Virus record (IMG/VR): IMGVR_UViG_2721755497_000004 | Direction: 5' to 3' (one strand) | Length of the DNA: 47,379 nt | Origin: a virus | Taxonomy: Duplodnaviria > Heunggongvirae > Uroviricota > Caudoviricetes | Part shown: positions 6,166 to 36,483 of the stretch, piece by piece | How positions within the stretch are numbered: the first letter of the stretch is position 1 | Layout of the letters: every line of letters starts with the position of its first letter | Made by a program: the position numbers and the translations under genes | The notes under the pieces: model-generated | Seen by the model: only the letters and a program-made list of their open reading frames with translations | What the model was told of the DNA's origin: nothing | The model's database searches: none

Positions 6166-6406
6166 TGCGTCACCCTTTAGTGTCTGATATCAGTATCTGT
6201 TTATGTACAAAAACAACAGGCACCCCAGAGGGTGCCTGTCTGCTGAGTGAATAAAATTCCTGAATTTCTTCACACTTCCGGCAATTACCTGTAGCCACCA
6301 TAATTACGCTGCGTTACTGTTTTCCTGCCTGAAAAATAACTCCATAACGTTAATCTTCATCGTTTATTTCCCGCAGCTCCGCTAACTCTGCGGGATTTTT
6401 TTATTT

Positions 6407-24403: not shown

Positions 24404-24946
24404 ATGAACAGATACTCTAAACTTCAAATTCAATTACATTGGCTGACTCTCGTATTAATAGCTATAGCCTGTGCTGCAATGGAACTTCGAGGTTTGTTTC
24501 CTAAAGGGTCTTCCTCCTATTTGCTTATGAGAGAAACACATTACAATGCTGGTATATTTATTCTTCTACTGATGATAATAAGAGTAATTATCAATAATAA
24601 ATATATAACACCAGCTATTACGCCGCCCCCACCTGCATGGCAAATGATATCAGCCAAATTCATGCAAACCCTGTTATACATATCTTTTTTGGTGTTACCA
24701 GTATCAGGACTTGCAATCATGGTTTTTGGAGGTAAAGCATGGAGCCTTCTGGGGATTGATATTCCCACTTTCGCTAACACCGACGGAGAAGTAAAATCCG
24801 TAGCCAAAACTATTCATGAATCACTTGCAAATATTGGTTATTTATTAATCACACTCCATGCTGGCGCTGCATTAATTCATCATTATATTCAGAAGGACAA
24901 TACACTTGTCAGAATGCTCCCTGAGCACCAGCATGATAAAAAGTGA
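24404..24946 (+). CDS. cytochrome b561 family protein (CybB-like, moron)
   Basis: 180-aa ORF with conserved b561 motifs (…YSKLQIQLHWL…, …HESLANIGYLLITLHAGAALIHHYIQKDNTLVRMLP), four predicted TM helices, AT-rich, RBS AAGGGA. Confidence 0.8.
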   Translation: MNRYSKLQIQLHWLTLVLIAIACAAMELRGLFPKGSSSYLLMRETHYNAGIFILLLMIIRVIINNKYITPAITPPPPAWQMISAKFMQTLLYISFLVLPVSGLAIMVFGGKAWSLLGIDIPTFANTDGEVKSVAKTIHESLANIGYLLITLHAGAALIHHYIQKDNTLVRMLPEHQHDKK

Positions 24947-26057: not shown

Positions 26058-26174
26058 GGGGATTTATCGTTTTTTAATCTCTTGATATGTTAAGTATATA
26101 ATCCAACACTCATGGCAGGTCTCATAAACATATCCCTTGAGACACAACAGATAACAACAAATGAGGCCTTATAA

Positions 26175-26489
26175 ATGAACAGTAAAGAAAGTTTGCGCAG
26201 AAGATTTTTACAACTAATGACAGAAAACGTTAAATCAGAGTTACTTCTTCAGATGGCGGACAATAACGAAGTAACGAGCAGCATTCTTGCAGACCCTTAC
26301 GGTAAACTCTCACATAAAACGCTTGATATTATTACCACAACATTAACACCACTGATGCTTCAACGGCTGAAACATAATATCAACGCATGGGTTAATGAAG
26401 AATTAAGTCCTCCCTGCTTATGGGATTCTCGTTACGCATGTCAGCAAAAAATGCGAATTTTCAACTTACTATCACCAAAGCTCAGGTAG
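26175..26489 (+). CDS. hypothetical protein (opposite-strand moron between holin and endolysin)
   Basis: 104-aa AT-rich ORF with RBS TGAGG; occupies a 687-bp insertion separating S and R. Confidence 0.45.
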   Translation: MNSKESLRRRFLQLMTENVKSELLLQMADNNEVTSSILADPYGKLSHKTLDIITTTLTPLMLQRLKHNINAWVNEELSPPCLWDSRYACQQKMRIFNLLSPKLR

Positions 26490-26744
26490 CCATAAAATCC
26501 TGCCCTTCATGGCATACAGGATATCAATGGAATCACAATGACCGCCTCTTGCACAGCTGTGTCCCTGACACCCCGACAACTCAAATTTTCAGTATCTTCT
26601 GCTATCTAAAGAGAAAGCATACAAAGTCAAGGACCTTTCATCACATCCTGTTATTGATTGCCTGTTACCTTTGCATACCTCAGGGAACGTTTTTTCAGTT
26701 AGAAATATTCATTTTACAACCAGTTCGTATTTTTTATTCATCGA

Positions 26745-26960
26745 CTACTCTCCCCGCGCCGCCTTACGACGGTCCTCTTTAATCTTGAAGTACAGGTTCG
26801 TCAGGTACGTTAACAGACCAAACAGCAGACTCCCCAGCACGCCTATTGCCGCCCACTGAGACGGGGATACCCTGTCCAGCAACTGCAGAAACCAGTATCC
26901 CGTCCCCACCGCAGACGTGGTGTATGACACACCTGTTGTGATTTTTTCCATCTGGTACAT
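26745..26960 (-). CDS. S: class II pinholin (phage 21 S type) with dual-start motif
   Basis: MYQMEK...[50 protein letters not shown]; Met1/Met4 dual start; RBS GGGAGG. Confidence 0.8.
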
Positions 26961-27037: not shown

Positions 27038-27343
27038 TCACAGCATGGTTGCTGGCTCCGGCTGCAGAACATCATTTGGTTGTTCCTCACCACCGGTTTG
27101 TGCCTCAGGTCGTTCGCTGCTGTTTTCCACCGGAGAATCTGCTGTATTCTCACCATCCCCTGCCTGTGGCGCAGATGCCCCCTCAGCAGGTCCGATAAGC
27201 TCATCCAGAATCGCTTCCACATCCGCATCAATCTGAGCCTCAAACGTTTTACGGATAGACGCTTTCAGCGTCCCGCGGACTTCTTCAGTGCGCAGCGCTG
27301 ACTTCACTGCATCAGCAGTGACCAGTTTTTTCATTTCTGTCAT
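27038..27343 (-). CDS. hypothetical acidic protein
   Basis: ~101-aa ORF from the [13 protein letters not shown]et, highly acidic C-terminus; between nanS-p-like gene and holin. Confidence 0.4.
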
Positions 27344-27657
27344 GGTTTTTTCTCGCTGTAAGATGTGATTACGGGAGGGACGTGGACTTTGGCTCTGCTG
27401 ACTGACCGGCACTGATTTTTTCAGCCGCCATGGCATCAATCTTTTTACAGATGTAGTTTCGGATGATTTTATAACCGCCACTAACCAGATACAGTGCACA
27501 CACAGCCGTACAGAAATACAGCTGTATTTGCTGAATAAATGACATATACCCTTACCTTTAATATTGACTGGAGAAACAGTTTTAAGGTAAAAAATTACTG
27601 AGTTAATGGTTATCTCTTATTGCAAGCATTGTATCCCTTTATGGGTTGTGAATATCA

Positions 27658-27700
27658 CCCGCCAGTCAACAAATGGCTCTTTGACCGGCGGGATTTTTTT
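27658..27700 (+). terminator. plus-strand intrinsic terminator (hairpin plus T7 run)
   Basis: CCCGCCAGTCAA...TTGACCGGCGGG stem followed by GATTTTTTTAT; no annotated plus-strand gene upstream. Confidence 0.5.
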
Positions 27701-27707
27701 ATCCTGC

Positions 27708-29642
27708 TTACGCGTTATTCACTTCCACCACAATGCTGTCAATCAGCACCGGGTATGTTGCACCATTAGTGATATCGGTCACACGCAACTTGTCTGCCGT
27801 AAAAATTCCGACAGTGGACTGCGACAGCATGAACGGCGTCCCGTCCTGACCATCAATGACCGGCGTCACCTCAATACTGTTGTTACCGGCGAAACGGAAG
27901 CCCAACGTATGCCACTCGTTGTCAAATGCACCGAATGACCCCAGTTTCATGTTTTGCGCCGTATCGCCCTTGTGGTACATCACGTTAAGGTCTGTCGCAT
28001 CGCTCTGAACGTAAAAAGATGCCAGCAGGTTATGACCAGCATTACCTTCCAGGGTAACCCCTTGTGGCAGGGCAGAAACCGGCCAGTACAGCGCCAGTGC
28101 GTACTGATTAGCCGTAAGCGCGCCATCAAGTTTAAAACGACAATTGACAAGGCCGCCTTTGCCCAGCAGGTCGGCACCATTACCGGCATCATGTTCCAGG
28201 TACCAGGAGGATTTTCCCGTCGCTTTGGTAAGCTTCATCGCCTTACCTCCACTGGCTCCGGCATCATCCACAACAGCGGCACTACCTCCGCCAGCCCCCC
28301 AGCCCTGTGGAGTCAGTTGTCCTTCCGAATCGCTGGCCCTGTATGCAAACAGTGTTGTCATCCCGGTAGTTTCACCCGGTGATGTTGATGGAGTGTCAGG
28401 TGATGGCTTCTCATCCGGTGGTGTCACGGCCTGCCCGCCCAGCAGTTCAGCCGTGCGCCCTGCATGGAGCAGAATAGAGGAGGCCAGACGGTCAGAAATG
28501 ATGCCCCTGCGTGCCCATGAACTGAAATGGCTGTCACGCTGTGTCGAGACAAAACTGCCCTGGGTACGGGATGCCGCACCGTAATACCCGACAGCCACAA
28601 TATCCGGATCTTCCGTCGGAGCATTCGTTGGCGTGTTCTGTCCATTCTCATCCGTCAGGAACGGTACAAAGAAAATATTCTGAGTTTCCTTGCCTTTGTA
28701 GCCACCGTATACCGCCTCATATTTATCGGTGCCAGCGTTTTTCCAGTAATACGTGGTATCACCACAAATCCACGGTACCGTGCCAGCATTTCCACTCACG
28801 CACTGCGCAGCAAGCGGAGACAGGTCGGCTCTGAACTGCTGAACCATGGCAGTGAATAAACCATTATGCTGCTGACTTCCCGATGCAAGGTCTGCCTCTC
28901 CCTGCATCCAGACCACAGCCAGAAGTTTGTTTTTCGGGTTCTTCGCCAGCGCGACTTTGGTGCGGCTTACCAGGTCCTGATACAGAGGTTTACCGACTCC
29001 CCAGCGTGAAGAATCAGCGGAAGCACCGCTGGCCTCACTGAATGAACCGTCCGGCCCGGTGGTGAATGCTGACCCGCCACGGCAACAGGGCACCAGAAGT
29101 ATCCCGGCATTCTGCGGGATATAAGGCAGCAGTTTTTTGGCAATATGCAGCCCCTGACTCACACAACCATACTGCCCCTTGTTCAGGTCAGCTTTTGGGT
29201 GGTTTATCCCGCTCATGTCCTGCACATCATGCAGGCAGTGGTCTGCCGGAATGATGTCATTGTATTTACACGGCGTACCACCTGGCGTGACCGTGCTGCG
29301 GCGTGCCAGTTGCTTAATCCGTGGGTCCGGGCGGTCAAATGAATCCGGTAACGGAAGCCCTTCACCATAGGCCATGCCATTTGACTGCCCCGCCAGAACA
29401 ACAACAAAGTAATATTCTGGCTCACTGACTGTGCTCATTACCGTACCGCTGTCACCCGACGGCTTCACCACAACAGGCGTGGTGACATCACCCTCCGCTG
29501 CAATCGCCTGCATCAGGGTATAAGGCGTAATAGCAACCGGACTGCCAAACGGCTGCCAGCCTTCCTTCAGTTTTTGTGACAGTCGCTCCGCAAGCTCTGA
29601 CGGTGAAGCCGCCCTGACCACACCATAATGCTTAAATGTCAT
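27708..29642 (-). CDS. NanS-p-like sialate O-acetylesterase (SGNH/DUF303 hydrolase with C-terminal domain)
   Basis: ~645 aa from the MTFKHYGVV Met (RBS GGGAGGAG); GQSN motif; the position upstream of the lysis genes matches where I recall prophage nanS-p genes sitting. Confidence 0.65.
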   Translation of the reverse strand: MTFKHYGVVRAASPSELAERLSQKLKEGWQPFGSPVAITPYTLMQAIAAEGDVTTPVVVKPSGDSGTVMSTVSEPEYYFVVVLAGQSNGMAYGEGLPLPDSFDRPDPRIKQLARRSTVTPGGTPCKYNDIIPADHCLHDVQDMSGINHPKADLNKGQYGCVSQGLHIAKKLLPYIPQNAGILLVPCCRGGSAFTTGPDGSFSEASGASADSSRWGVGKPLYQDLVSRTKVALAKNPKNKLLAVVWMQGEADLASGSQQHNGLFTAMVQQFRADLSPLAAQCVSGNAGTVPWICGDTTYYWKNAGTDKYEAVYGGYKGKETQNIFFVPFLTDENGQNTPTNAPTEDPDIVAVGYYGAASRTQGSFVSTQRDSHFSSWARRGIISDRLASSILLHAGRTAELLGGQAVTPPDEKPSPDTPSTSPGETTGMTTLFAYRASDSEGQLTPQGWGAGGGSAAVVDDAGASGGKAMKLTKATGKSSWYLEHDAGNGADLLGKGGLVNCRFKLDGALTANQYALALYWPVSALPQGVTLEGNAGHNLLASFYVQSDATDLNVMYHKGDTAQNMKLGSFGAFDNEWHTLGFRFAGNNSIEVTPVIDGQDGTPFMLSQSTVGIFTADKLRVTDITNGATYPVLIDSIVVEVNNA

Positions 29643-29812
29643 TGCTCCTCCCGGACGGGATAATATGTTAACTAAGATGAGAGAGCAGGTGACAGCCCCG
29701 GCCGCATGAAAGTTCTGAGAGGGAAGTGCTGCCTGCTGCTCCATTGCACAGATTAATTACTGTCTGGTAGTATTCAGTGGCTGATTAGAATACTTCACAT
29801 TTTGTTATTTTG

Positions 29813-29847
29813 TGCAGCCCGTTACCATTCGTAGCGGGCTTTTTTTG
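29813..29847 (+). terminator. plus-strand hairpin plus T7 run
   Basis: AGCCCG...CGGGCT stem followed by TTTTTTT. Confidence 0.45.
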
Positions 29848-29850
29848 TCC

Positions 29851-29876
29851 ATAAAAAAGCCCCTCCGGAGAGGGGC
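29851..29876 (-). terminator. minus-strand intrinsic terminator (GCCCCTC-CGGA-GAGGGGC plus U6)
   Basis: Perfect 7-bp GC stem preceded on the plus strand by AAAAAA; lies downstream (minus sense) of repeat element A. Confidence 0.55.
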
Positions 29877-29907
29877 ATACTAGCTATATATCCATTTATC
29901 ATTGGCT

Positions 29908-30037
29908 GCGTGGTGCCGGGTGCCTCCCGGTGAGCTCAGCCTGGTGTCACTGAGCCCGCACATTCTCGATCCAAGTTATCGTCGGAGATAATACCTGATA
30001 CACCAGACGCCCCTCCGCACAGGGGGATTCACCACGC
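29908..30037 (-). repeat. structured repeat element A (closing helix GCGTGGTG/CACCACGC)
   Basis: 5' arm plus CCGGG-TGCCT-CCCGG hairpin ... variable core ... CCCCT-CCGCAC-AGGGG hairpin plus GATT plus 3' arm; strand assigned from the flanking terminators. Confidence 0.7.
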
Positions 30038-30265
30038 GCAGAGAAGGATACTGAACACTATTTTCTCCAGGCAATATGCAATAACATGAAGTGTGAGATG
30101 ACTTACAATTATAAAAAACAGCCTACAGAATACTCCTAAATAAAGCCATATCAAAATGAGTAACACAAAAAGGAACCAGGCAAAAATTTACGAGCAGGTA
30201 TTATCCAGCAACAGTTCAGACGCCATAACTTATTGCCGATAGCTACCATCAATAATTTCTTTCAT

Positions 30266-30289
30266 AAAAAAGCCCCTCTGAAGAGGGGC
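30266..30289 (-). terminator. minus-strand intrinsic terminator (GCCCCTC-TGAA-GAGGGGC plus U6)
   Basis: Near-identical copy of the element A terminator, downstream (minus sense) of element B. Confidence 0.55.
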
Positions 30290-30316
30290 TGACATACGCA
30301 TTTGCTTTCATCATCA

Positions 30317-30439
30317 ATATGGCGCCGGGTGCCTCCCGGTGCTCCATAACTGATTAATATGGAACGCGGTTTCATTCAGTTGCATTCATGAATAACACTC
30401 TAATCAGTCCGCCCCGCCGCTTAGGGGGATTCGCCATAT
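30317..30439 (-). repeat. structured repeat element B (closing helix ATATGGCG/CGCCATAT, compensatory change)
   Basis: Same architecture as A; terminal helix sequence differs from A but remains perfectly complementary. Confidence 0.7.
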
Positions 30440-30574
30440 AAATTGAAAGTACTGAACACATCTGTCACAAACAATATGCAATTGTATGAATTGTGAGATT
30501 ATTATCAATAACACAAAATTACAGCTCTAGTACATAAACAGCAGATTAAACAAGAACAACAAAAGTATTGAATT

Positions 30575-30700
30575 GCACGGTGCCGGGTGCCTCCCGGTGA
30601 ATTCTGCAATGACCAGACAGAATCCGCAACTTGCTACTAACGCTAATGCGACCAAGCCTAACAGTCATTATGCCCCTCCGCACAGGGGGATTCACCATGC
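30575..30700 (-). repeat. structured repeat element C (closing helix GCACGGTG/CACCATGC, one mismatch)
   Basis: Same conserved hairpins GGTGCCGGGTGCCTCCCGGTGA and CCCCTCCGCACAGGGGGATTCACCA; different variable core. Confidence 0.7.
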
Positions 30701-30829
30701 GCTAAAAAAATACAAAACGTCACGTCACTCTGACAATACGAAGCACCATAAAATGTGAGTTATTTATCAATTCTTAATTCTGGTTACAGGAATATTCCGA
30801 ATCAAATCTTTAAAAAAAGAAATTCAAAT

Positions 30830-30932
30830 GCATGGTGCCGGGTGCCTCCCGGTGAACAGACCGTCCGTGATACCAGTCGGCAACACAGGAAATTAATGGT
30901 ATCACCCCACCGCACAGGGGGATTCACCATGC
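30830..30932 (-). repeat. structured repeat element D (closing helix GCATGGTG/CACCATGC)
   Basis: Same conserved hairpins; shorter variable core containing its own 9-bp hairpin GTGATACCA/TGGTATCAC. Confidence 0.7.
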
Positions 30933-31121
30933 AGGCGTTTTCTTAGCAAACTAACTGCGCGCCCGGCAACTCCCAACCACATAAAACGTGGAGTTTGTAG
31001 CATTTATGCACATAACTCACAGGGGTTATCTTAAAAAAAGCTGACCATGCTTCCCCGGCAACGCAATAACTTTATTCCCTGAAGTGGCATCCCCCGTATT
31101 GTCGGCAGGCTCAAAAAGGAG

Positions 31122-36116: not shown

Positions 36117-36272
36117 TTACTCCTCAGGTTCGTAAGCTGTGAAGACAGCGACCTCCGTCTGGCCGGTTCGGATTCGTACCTCGCAGAGGTCTTTCCTCGT
36201 TACCAGTGCCGTCACTATGACGGTTAAACAGATGACGATCAGGGCGATTAACATCGCCTTTTGCTGCTTCAT
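36117..36272 (-). CDS. hokD: Hok-family type I toxin
   Basis: 51-aa MKQQKAMLIALIVICLTVIVTALVTRKDLCEVRIRTGQTEVAVFTAYEPEE, canonical Hok; nested in the longer mok-like frame starting at 36329. Confidence 0.85.
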   Translation of the reverse strand: MKQQKAMLIALIVICLTVIVTALVTRKDLCEVRIRTGQTEVAVFTAYEPEE

Positions 36273-36329
36273 AGCCTGCTTCTCCTTGCCTTTCGGCACG
36301 TAAGAGGCTAACCTAGATTTGCCGTTCAT
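36117..36329 (-). CDS. mok: Mok-like overlapping reading frame
   Basis: 70-aa frame (MNGKSRLASYVPKGKEKQA…) extending upstream of and in frame with hok. Confidence 0.45.
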   Translation of the reverse strand: MNGKSRLASYVPKGKEKQAMKQQKAMLIALIVICLTVIVTALVTRKDLCEVRIRTGQTEVAVFTAYEPEE

Positions 36330-36483
36330 AGATTGAGCCTCAGATTAATGTTAAGCGTCTTGCAGGACGCGTAATGTTAACTGGGGCTTTTCTCTATCTG
36401 CCTTTGGTGTTCATGCCTGAGACAGATAGCCTCAAGCACCCGCAGCCATTCTACTTAACTCCCGTTACCTCGCCAATATAAAA

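What the first reader, a model, noticed from the sequence alone, without database searches (positions are those of the whole stretch)
27560..27700. Orphan plus-strand terminator: candidate small RNA antisense to the late operon
A strong plus-strand intrinsic terminator (11-bp stem plus T7) lies just past the nanS-p-like stop with no plus-strand gene upstream. A TTGACT -35-like hexamer sits about 90 nt upstream (around 27571). This could be a ~90-nt sRNA, or the terminator of an antisense transcript opposing late transcription.
Basis: seen in the sequence. Interest (0 to 1): 0.35.

Follow-up and report, generated by a model that had tools for sequence, protein, structure and literature searches.

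The report
Prophage small RNA gene facing late operon
The orphan terminator is real and closes a roughly 100-base small-RNA gene that points against the phage late genes; it belongs to a kind of prophage RNA already known to bind the Hfq chaperone in pathogenic E. coli, so it is a new member of a known kind.

Summary
A + strand hairpin at 27658-27692 has 11 pairs, one A.C mismatch and an 11-nt loop (about -17.5 kcal/mol). T7 follows at 27694-27700, 7 nt before the nanS-p-like stop codon. TTGACT lies at 27564-27569, then 18 nt, then TAAAAA at 27588-27593.

This layout recurs between nanS-p and DUF1378 in divergent prophages: a promoter-like pair, 65-105 nt, a hairpin and a T-run. The hexamers stay fixed while the spacer and stem sequence change, with compensatory changes in the stem.

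A covariance model built without this variant finds window 27618-27700 (+) at E = 3.6e-5.

The O157 Sakai Sp18 relative lies in the ECs4993-ECs4994 spacer. In published CRAC data that spacer is Hfq-bound on the antisense strand only (EcOnc37).

The validated EPEC sRNAs PasA and PasC hold the same position next to a 57%-identical esterase gene. Their published 5' ends lie exactly 30 nt after TTGACA. Sequence and structure profiles do not link them to this element.

Best reading: a separately transcribed, probably Hfq-binding sRNA of about 100 nt with a hypervariable 5' half and a conserved 3' scaffold. Expression, the start site and targets are inferred. It is a new member of a known kind, of modest interest.

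The parts
27564..27569 (+). -35-like hexamer TTGACT
   Evidence: TTGAC is invariant in all 14 aligned units, including PasA, PasC and EcOnc51. It is followed by a spacer of 18 nt (17 in a few) whose sequence varies, then TAAAAA. The combined pattern is unique in the window, with 0.04 expected.
27588..27593 (+). -10-like hexamer TAAAAA (non-canonical: no T at the last position)
   Evidence: It is conserved at the same spacing in the W, Sp18, Stx2a-phage and L017-type units. The Pas units carry CAGAAA or GAAAAA at the same place. The function is inferred, not shown.
27600..27700 (+). predicted sRNA of about 100 nt (EcOnc37-type). The start is inferred within about 2 nt; the 3' end lies in the U-tract.
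   Evidence: The published 5' ends of PasA and PasC lie exactly 30 nt after their TTGACA. The same rule gives 27599-27601 here. CM R1, built without this variant, matches 27618-27700 at 34.8 bits, E = 3.6e-5. nhmmer matches 27559-27701 at E = 3.1e-5.
27600..27643 (+). hypervariable 5' half (candidate targeting domain)
   Evidence: It is only 33-54% identical to the closest relatives, whose flanking nanS-p 3' end is 89% identical and whose RNA 3' half is 86-96% identical. No stable conserved fold was found: whole-RNA z = -0.66.
27644..27657 (+). conserved single-stranded A/U-rich stretch just before the terminator (candidate Hfq contact). The CCUUUAUGGG motif lies just upstream at 27635-27645.
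   Evidence: It is conserved across W-type relatives and in Sp18-type units and is aligned by CM R1.
27658..27692 (+). terminator hairpin: 12 stem positions, 11 pairs, one A.C mismatch, 11-nt loop
   Evidence: At least 12 different stem sequences occur at this position in relatives. Four of 9 stem pairs show changes on both sides; the covariation score is 0.199 against 0.088 in shuffles, reached by 0 of 500.
27694..27700 (+). T7 tract (U7 tail)
   Evidence: A run of T5-T8 lies on this side of the hairpin in every relative examined.
27708..29744 (-). nanS-p-like sialate O-acetylesterase gene (the likely start is the internal ATG used by RefSeq annotation, giving 644 aa)
   Evidence: Pfam DUF1737, SASA and DUF6645. 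It is 57% identical over its full length to the E2348/69 esterase that precedes PasA.
27369..27545 (-). DUF1378 gene, the next late-operon gene; its start codon lies 19 nt from the -35 hexamer on the opposite strand
   Evidence: Pfam DUF1378, E = 3.5e-28.

Best explanation
This is a small-RNA gene set into the spacer between the nanS-p-like esterase gene and the DUF1378/DUF826/holin genes, and it is transcribed against the late operon.

Inferred steps: host RNA polymerase starts near 27600 from a promoter with a near-consensus -35 (TTGACT), an 18-bp spacer and an A-rich -10 (TAAAAA). It makes about 100 nt and stops at the hairpin plus U7 (27658-27700), just short of the esterase stop codon. 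Little antisense RNA therefore enters that gene.

The RNA has two modules. The 3' half is conserved: an A/U-rich single strand, a G+C-rich terminator and a U7 tail. This is the usual Hfq-binding layout. The 5' half differs almost completely even between close relatives and is the likely pairing domain.

By analogy with EcOnc37, PasA and PasC, it is probably made in the lysogen, bound and stabilised by Hfq, and acts by base-pairing on host or prophage mRNAs.

It is also fully complementary to the late transcript's nanS-p-DUF1378 spacer. During induction it could therefore pair in cis.

Shown here: the sequence features, their conservation, stem covariation and family membership. Inferred: the start site, expression, Hfq binding and all targets.
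For: 1. The terminator is strong and non-random, and it works in one direction only.

2. TTGACW-N18-TAAAAA is unique in the window, with 0.04 expected.

3. The same unit lies between nanS-p and DUF1378 in the O157 Sp18 Mu-like prophage, in Stx2a phages such as P13374 and in many IMG/VR contigs. The hexamers and T-run are fixed, while the spacer, body and stem sequences change.

4. The stem covaries: 4 of 9 pairs change on both sides, and 0 of 500 shuffles reach the observed score.

5. Profiles built without this variant find the window locus as the top hit: nhmmer E = 3.1e-5 and CM R1 34.8 bits, E = 3.6e-5, with the next hit at 19.4 bits.

6. Sakai ECs4993...ECs4994 is rank 57 among Hfq-CRAC intergenic regions. 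Reads are 15921, 5032, 11303, 91585 and 2303 on one strand, against 0, 0, 1, 187 and 0 on the other. I read the first column as the minus strand, because the rRNA operons, omrA, csrA, gadY, fnrS and chiX rows fit that reading. The two genes are on the + strand. EcOnc37 is listed on the - strand in Sp18, in 5 of 5 data sets, with a terminator.

7. PasA and PasC hold the same position, convergent with a 57%-identical esterase. They are northern-validated and Hfq-dependent, and their 5' ends lie 30 nt after TTGACA. PasC and the minor PasA product end at the terminator that abuts the esterase stop.

8. The 5' half is 33-54% identical between close relatives, against 86-96% for the 3' half. Published work describes the same pattern for PasA versus PasA-2 and for AsxR/AgvB.
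Against: - There are no expression data for this strain or this variant.
- The -10 lacks the highly conserved final T, and the tool's sigma-70 scan found no promoter here.
- The PasA 5' end has been suggested to arise by processing of a longer transcript, so the +30 rule may not mark a true start.
- The + strand stem carries an A.C mismatch that would be a G.U pair on the - strand. The - strand fold of the region scores somewhat better (z = -2.24 against -1.35).
- Sequence and structure profiles do not connect this element to PasA or PasC.
- EcOnc37 has Hfq-crosslinking evidence only. No northern blot is listed for it.
- No pairing partner inside the window stood out above shuffled controls.
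Confidence: 0.7

Rival explanations
1. The element is only an insulator. The terminator stops stray + strand transcription, from spurious promoters or from + strand morons further downstream in the lysis region, before it runs antisense into nanS-p. Any short RNA made has no function.
For: The terminator always abuts the esterase stop codon. The -10 is weak. The 5' half of the RNA is not conserved. + strand ORFs and morons exist further upstream at 24404-24946 and 26175-26489.
Against: A fixed-distance -35/-10-like pair is conserved together with the terminator. Sequence just upstream of the stem is conserved as well. The homologous RNA is strongly Hfq-bound, and PasA and PasC have many RIL-seq partners. 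Two earlier + strand terminator-like sites, at 27304 and 27396, would already catch long upstream transcripts.
Confidence: 0.12
2. The RNA acts mainly in cis, like lambda OOP. It pairs with the late polycistronic mRNA across the nanS-p-DUF1378 spacer. This would trigger RNase III cleavage, or convergent transcription would interfere with late transcription. Either way it would tune expression of the downstream DUF1378/DUF826/holin genes or guard against leaky lysis in lysogens.
For: The RNA is perfectly complementary to about 100 nt of the late transcript, because it is convergent. Its promoter sits 19 nt from the DUF1378 start codon. PasA chimeras with the 3' ends of the adjacent esterase mRNAs appear among its RIL-seq targets (file 9).
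Against: The RNA does not overlap the DUF1378 ribosome-binding site or any coding sequence in this window. A purely cis role would not explain Hfq binding. It would also not explain why a conserved 3' scaffold carries a hypervariable 5' half. The cassette also sits in a Mu-like prophage away from any holin gene.
Confidence: 0.12
3. The hairpin works on the - strand, as a 3' stabiliser or processing site of the nanS-p message within the late transcript. The T-run and the upstream hexamers would then be incidental.
For: In this variant and in the Sp18 type the - strand hairpin is fully paired (G.U where the + strand has A.C). The - strand fold is more unusual, z = -2.24.
Against: The T-run lies on the same side of the stem in every relative, and no U-run follows the - strand hairpin. 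Variants L050 and L086 carry G.U or U.G pairs that hold only on the + strand. Hfq-bound reads in Sakai come from the antisense strand only.
Confidence: 0.05

Closest known systems
EcOnc37 (predicted Hfq-binding sRNA of prophage Sp18, E. coli O157:H7 Sakai; Tree et al. 2014, PMC4104026, Tables S1B and S2)
   Same: It lies in the same spacer (nanS-p-like ECs4993 to DUF1378 ECs4994) on the same antisense strand. It has the same TTGACT-N18-TAAAAA pair, the same CCCGCCAG...CCGGCGGG-A-T7 terminator with the same A.C mismatch, and the same CCUUUAUGGGUU motif. The spacer region is about 74% identical by BLAST. It belongs to the profile and covariance model that recover the window element.
   Different: The 5' half is unrelated. 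The Sp18 type has an internal ACUCC-UUCG-GGAGU hairpin followed by U5AU4, which this variant lacks. The host element is a Mu-like prophage rather than a lambdoid one. EcOnc37 is known only from crosslinking; no northern blot, start site or target has been reported.
PasA / PasC (EcOnc51 / EcOnc52), prophage sRNAs of EPEC E2348/69 (Pearl Mizrahi et al. 2021, PMC8550237; Zhu, Shabalina and Storz 2026, bioRxiv 10.64898/2026.05.13.724894)
   Same: They hold the same position and orientation, just downstream of and convergent with a homologous esterase gene (57% identity) and ahead of the lysis genes. They have TTGACA, then 18 nt, then an A-rich hexamer. Their terminator contains GCCAG, is followed by T7AT and abuts the stop codon. 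A CCUUU motif lies upstream of the stem. They are 78-85 nt long. PasA variants likewise combine a variable 5' half with a conserved 3' half.
   Different: No sequence or structure similarity is detectable by profile. The Pas-only HMM finds nothing at this locus or in any DUF1378-linked unit. CM R1 scores the Pas units at only 7-12 bits, no better than unrelated terminators. There is no intact DUF1378 gene next to the Pas units.
AsxR / AgvB anti-sRNAs (Rfam RF02703 / RF02702; Tree et al. 2014)
   Same: They are short prophage RNAs convergent with late-region transcription, and they bind Hfq. They have a variable 5' pairing end on a conserved 3' terminator scaffold.
   Different: They lie on the other side of nanS-p, between the moron and nanS-p, back to back with an STnc100-type RNA. 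They are 51-60 nt long and unrelated in sequence. Rfam finds no match to them at this locus.
Lambda OOP antisense RNA (from general knowledge, not tested here)
   Same: It is a short convergent RNA with its own promoter and an intrinsic terminator, and it ends at the 3' end of a phage gene.
   Different: OOP overlaps the cII coding end and acts in cis through RNase III. Here there is no overlap with coding sequence, and relatives bind Hfq.

Membership tests
EcOnc37-type sRNA (nanS-p / DUF1378 spacer) | Sequence-plus-structure similarity to other members | tested here: met
   CM R1 was built from 17 units and excludes this variant and its close relatives. It matches window 27618-27700 (+) at 34.8 bits, E = 3.6e-5, and the next hit scores 19.4 bits. 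nhmmer gives E = 3.1e-5 over 27559-27701.
EcOnc37-type sRNA (nanS-p / DUF1378 spacer) | Position: in the spacer between the esterase stop and the DUF1378 start, on the strand opposite to both genes | tested here: met
EcOnc37-type sRNA (nanS-p / DUF1378 spacer) | Intrinsic terminator whose stem is maintained by compensatory changes | tested here: met
   Four of 9 pairs change on both sides, and 87.6% of cells are paired against 20.9-66.0% when the partner columns are slid by 1-3. No shuffle of 500 reaches the covariation score.
EcOnc37-type sRNA (nanS-p / DUF1378 spacer) | Binding to Hfq in vivo | not testable with these tools
   This is shown only for the Sakai homologue, by CRAC.
PasA / PasC | Position and orientation relative to the sialate esterase gene and the lysis genes | tested here: met
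PasA / PasC | Nucleotide similarity to PasA or PasC. This is the criterion used by Zhu et al.: blastn, and cmscan at E below 0.005. | tested here: not met
   The Pas-only nhmmer profile gives no hit at the locus and none in 474 kb of related loci. R1 scores on Pas units are 7-12 bits, E = 0.8-9.
PasA / PasC | Promoter layout and 5' end: TTGACA, about 18 nt, an A-rich hexamer, and an RNA start 30 nt after the -35 | tested here: inconclusive
   The layout is shared. No start site has been mapped for the window element. The PasA 5' end may come from processing.
PasA / PasC | Hfq-dependent stability and RIL-seq partners | not testable with these tools
   This is published for the EPEC RNAs only.
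Rfam families (any of 4227) | Score at or above the family's gathering threshold | tested here: not met
   There is no hit at 27560-27700 at the gathering threshold. In the lax search of 27200-28000, which lists matches up to E = 10, the best match there was E = 0.26 at 21.5 bits against a gathering score of 45, so only chance-level matches. Rfam also finds nothing at the PasA, PasC, EcOnc37 or P13374 units.

The most novel reading that the evidence does not exclude
The nanS-p / lysis junction of lambdoid prophages, and of at least one Mu-like prophage, may carry an undescribed, widespread family of modular Hfq sRNAs. A conserved promoter and a conserved 3' Hfq/terminator scaffold would be kept, while the 5' pairing domain is swapped wholesale between close relatives. 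PasA, PasC and EcOnc37 would be diverged branches of one ancestral gene. The variant here occurs in 20 of 5426 complete E. coli genomes, many of them from mice, and is annotated in none. It would carry a 5' domain aimed at targets not yet seen in pathogen studies.
Probability: 0.35. Interest if true: 0.55.

Novelty: new member of a known kind. Interest (0 to 1): 0.35.

Why it matters
Prophage sRNAs rewire host regulation in EHEC and EPEC; AsxR, AgvB, Esr41 and the Pas RNAs are examples. This locus shows that the same kind of gene sits unannotated in prophages of commensal, mouse-derived E. coli.

It also shows that EcOnc37, so far only a line in a supplementary table, belongs to a conserved family with Stx2a-phage members. 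No Rfam model exists for that family.

The contrast between the variable 5' half and the conserved 3' half offers a simple natural test of how phages retarget an sRNA scaffold. The practical gain is better annotation. The conceptual gain is modest.

Tried and rejected
- **Rfam:** no family matches, at the gathering threshold or in the lax search.
- **Built-in promoter/terminator scan:** it missed both features. Its loop limit is 8 nt and it requires a T at -7.
- **Pas-only sequence profile against the window and 474 kb of loci:** no link. R1 against the Pas loci gave no link above generic terminators.
- **DUF1378 remnant next to PasA/PasC (tblastn):** nothing significant. Only a match of about 10 nt (ATAAATGACA) lies beside the -35, too weak to use.
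- **Small protein on the + strand:** the ORF at 27606-27938 (110 aa) runs through the terminator, has no Pfam match and is closed after 5 codons in the 90%-identical relative. Rejected.
- **Tiny - strand ORF after AAAGGGA in the spacer:** not conserved in the Sp18 type. Rejected.
- **Pairing partners of the 5' half inside the window (RNAduplex, both strands):** the best energy, -38.4, lies within the range of shuffled queries, -33 to -42.
- **Esr055:** it lies upstream of nanS-p at the STnc100-type position, not at this locus.
- **Paper search for ECs4993, EcOnc37 and Z4502:** only irrelevant hits.
- **Sakai coordinates:** the EcOnc37 coordinates are for NC_002695.1 and the copy held here is .2, which is 128 bp longer by my recollection of the .1 length. 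I therefore relied on the gene-named spacer row of Table S1B rather than on coordinates.

Full report
**What is in the sequence**

- On the + strand, CCCGCCAGTCAA (27658-27669) pairs with TTGACCGGCGGG (27681-27692) across an 11-nt loop. There are 11 pairs, 8 of them G-C, and one internal A.C mismatch. An A and then T7 (27694-27700) follow.
- RNAfold predicts this hairpin in every fold of the region, at about -17.5 kcal/mol for the hairpin alone.
- The tool's own terminator scan missed it because it allows loops of at most 8 nt.
- A scan written for the purpose required at least 9 pairs, at most 1 mismatch, a loop of 3-12 and at least T6. It finds this site and four others in the 47-kb window on both strands, against 0.33 on average in 100 dinucleotide shuffles.
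- On the - strand the hairpin is preceded by A7 and followed by UGAUAUUCAC. It can therefore terminate only + strand transcription.
- The stop codon of the - strand esterase ORF is at 27708-27710. The next late gene, DUF1378, starts at 27545.
- The window is 100% identical to a prophage of mouse E. coli strain M18. RefSeq annotates nothing there between these two genes and no + strand gene nearby.

**A promoter-like pair**

- TTGACT lies at 27564-27569, followed by 18 nt and TAAAAA at 27588-27593. TTGACW-N18-TAAAAA occurs once in the window, with 0.04 expected.
- The -10 is non-canonical because it lacks the final T. This is why the sigma-70 scan reports no promoter. The promoter is an inference from conservation.

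**The unit is conserved**

I collected spacers from several sources:
- E. coli genomes;
- Stx phages;
- an IMG/VR scan with a conserved esterase 3' motif;
- an IMG/VR scan with the DUF1378 protein.

Almost all nanS-p-DUF1378 spacers carry, on the strand opposite to the genes:
- TTGAC[A/T/G];
- a spacer of 18 nt (17 in a few) whose sequence varies;
- TAAAAA;
- 65-105 nt of body;
- a G+C-rich hairpin and a run of T5-T8 that abuts, and in Sp18 overlaps, the esterase stop codon.

At least a dozen different stem sequences occur. Examples are CCGCCAG/CTGGCGG, GCCGCCGG/CCGGCGGC, CACCGGCAG/CTGCCGGTG and CTCCCG.CAGG/CCTG.CGGGAG.

On a 17-sequence alignment that excludes the window's own variant, 4 of 9 stem pairs change on both sides. 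There, 87.6% of cells pair, against 20.9-66.0% when the partner columns are slid by 1-3. No shuffle of 500 reaches the covariation score.

Three distant DUF1378 homologues in another gene context lack the unit.

**Family membership**

- An nhmmer profile of 12 units, without the window or its 90% relative, finds window 27559-27701 (+) as the top hit, E = 3.1e-5. Stx-phage units alone give E = 0.002.
- Covariance model R1 has 17 units and none of the window's type. It finds 27618-27700 (+) at 34.8 bits, E = 3.6e-5. The next hit, an unrelated terminator, scores 19.4 bits.
- No Rfam family covers this locus or its relatives.

**Experimental anchors from the literature**

*EcOnc37.* The Sakai Sp18 copy lies between ECs_4993 (nanS-p-like) and ECs_4994 (DUF1378), both on the + strand. 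Its spacer region is about 74% identical to the window by BLAST.
- Tree et al. 2014 list the spacer ECs4993...ECs4994 as rank 57 among Hfq-CRAC intergenic regions. Reads are 15921, 5032, 11303, 91585 and 2303 in one strand column and 0, 0, 1, 187 and 0 in the other.
- The rows for rRNA operons, omrA/omrB, csrA, gadY, fnrS and chiX show that the first column is the minus strand. That reading rests on my knowledge of those genes' orientation.
- Their Table S2 lists EcOnc37 in Sp18 on the - strand, in 5 of 5 data sets, with a nearby Rho-independent terminator.
- So the homologous RNA is made and is Hfq-bound in a lysogen. No northern blot is listed for it.

*PasA and PasC.* In EPEC E2348/69, PasA (85 nt, with a minor 236-nt form) and PasC (78 nt from the published coordinates 1290909 to 1290832; the table lists 79) were validated by northern blot. 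They are destabilised without Hfq and have many RIL-seq partners.
- They lie just downstream of, and convergent with, esterase genes. The PP2 esterase, compared directly, is 57% identical to the window's over its full length.
- Their published 5' ends fall exactly 30 nt after a TTGACA hexamer.
- PasC and the minor PasA form end at the terminator that abuts the esterase stop.
- Applying the same +30 rule here puts the start at about 27600 and gives an RNA of about 100 nt.
- Zhu et al. 2026 place the PasA/PasC family between the sialate esterase and the holin/lysozyme genes. [quoted passage not shown]

**Limits of the PasA/PasC link**

- A profile of the Pas units finds nothing at this locus or in any DUF1378-linked unit.
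- R1 scores the Pas units no better than unrelated terminators.
- The window element therefore works like PasA and PasC and sits where they sit, but it fails the sequence criterion for that family. I file it with EcOnc37.

**Modular evolution**

- Against its closest relatives, the window's RNA 3' half (57 nt) is 86-96% identical and the esterase 3' end is 89% identical.
- The RNA 5' half (about 45 nt) is only 33-54% identical, about what I would expect for unrelated sequence under this alignment method; this baseline was not measured.
- The whole RNA has no unusual fold apart from the terminator, z = -0.66.
- This fits a conserved Hfq/terminator scaffold that carries an exchangeable pairing domain, as described for AsxR/AgvB and PasA/PasA-2.

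**Mechanism and rivals**

The best reading is an independently transcribed, probably Hfq-dependent base-pairing sRNA made in the lysogen. It may also act in cis on the late transcript, to which it is perfectly complementary.

| Rival | Main evidence against |
|---|---|
| Pure insulator terminator | The conserved promoter pair, the conserved pre-stem sequence and Hfq binding of the homologue |
| OOP-like cis antisense role | Cannot be excluded, and it may coexist with a trans role |
| Hairpin working on the - strand message | The fixed polarity of the T-run, + strand-only G.U pairs in some variants and antisense-only Hfq reads |

- One observation favours the - strand reading. The A.C mismatch of this variant would be a G.U pair on the - strand.
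- A + strand ORF at 27606-27938 is not conserved and has no domain match.
- No pairing partner inside the window stands out. Host targets could not be searched.

**Distribution and novelty**

- This variant of the unit occurs in 20 of 5426 complete E. coli genomes. Many are from mice, and none has an annotation under the match.
- The kind of element is known. This member, and the wider DUF1378-linked family with its Stx2a-phage members, are not described as such in the papers I read and have no Rfam model.

Noticed in passing
window 29780-29846 (+): A second orphan + strand unit. A TAGAAT -10-like hexamer is followed by about 50 nt ending in the hairpin GCCCGTTAC/GTAGCGGGC (29817-29839) and T7 (29840-29846). 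It sits back to back with the terminator of an STnc100 copy (29847-30067, -). AsxR abuts STnc100 in the same way in Stx2a phage P13374 (L004 5101-5153 and 5155-5360). The promoter region aligns with that of AsxR, but the body differs, and the Rfam AsxR and AgvB models do not match. It is a candidate new anti-sRNA-type variant.
   Followed up: partly
window 29847-30962 (-): Four tandem copies of the STnc100 / PasD-type sRNA (133, 99.6, 100.5 and 76.6 bits) lie between the tRNA genes and the esterase gene. Esr055 of EDL933 occupies the same kind of position.
   Followed up: no
window about 26060-26745; L001 2709-3395: About 690 bp separates the holin and lysozyme genes and carries a + strand ORF (26175-26489, annotated as a hypothetical protein in strain M18). 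In the related prophage of strain 8178 the lysozyme gene follows the holin gene directly. This looks like a moron inserted inside the lysis cassette.
   Followed up: no
L002 / L007 (O157 Sp18, Mu-like prophage): The esterase - sRNA - DUF1378 - DUF826 block sits between the gin invertase and com/mom of a Mu-like prophage, far from any holin gene. The block, with its sRNA gene, therefore appears to move as a cassette between unrelated phage types.
   Followed up: partly
L005 2266-2541 (E2348/69 PP2); L009 1411-1684 (Sakai Sp12): These prophages carry two tandem convergent sRNA units. One is PasA/EcOnc51. The second is an EcOnc52-like unit with its own TTGACA-N18-GAAAAA pair, whose terminator abuts the esterase stop. 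The published minor 236-nt PasA form is read-through from the first unit to the second terminator.
   Followed up: partly
window 36267-36441 (-) and 24404-24946 (+): A sok antitoxin RNA match (110 bits) and a + strand cytochrome b-like moron lie in the same prophage.
   Followed up: no
window 6336-6402 (+): Another strong terminator, CCCGC...GCGGG-A-T7, was picked up as the second-best hit of model R1 (19.4 bits). It resembles the family only in its terminator.
   Followed up: no
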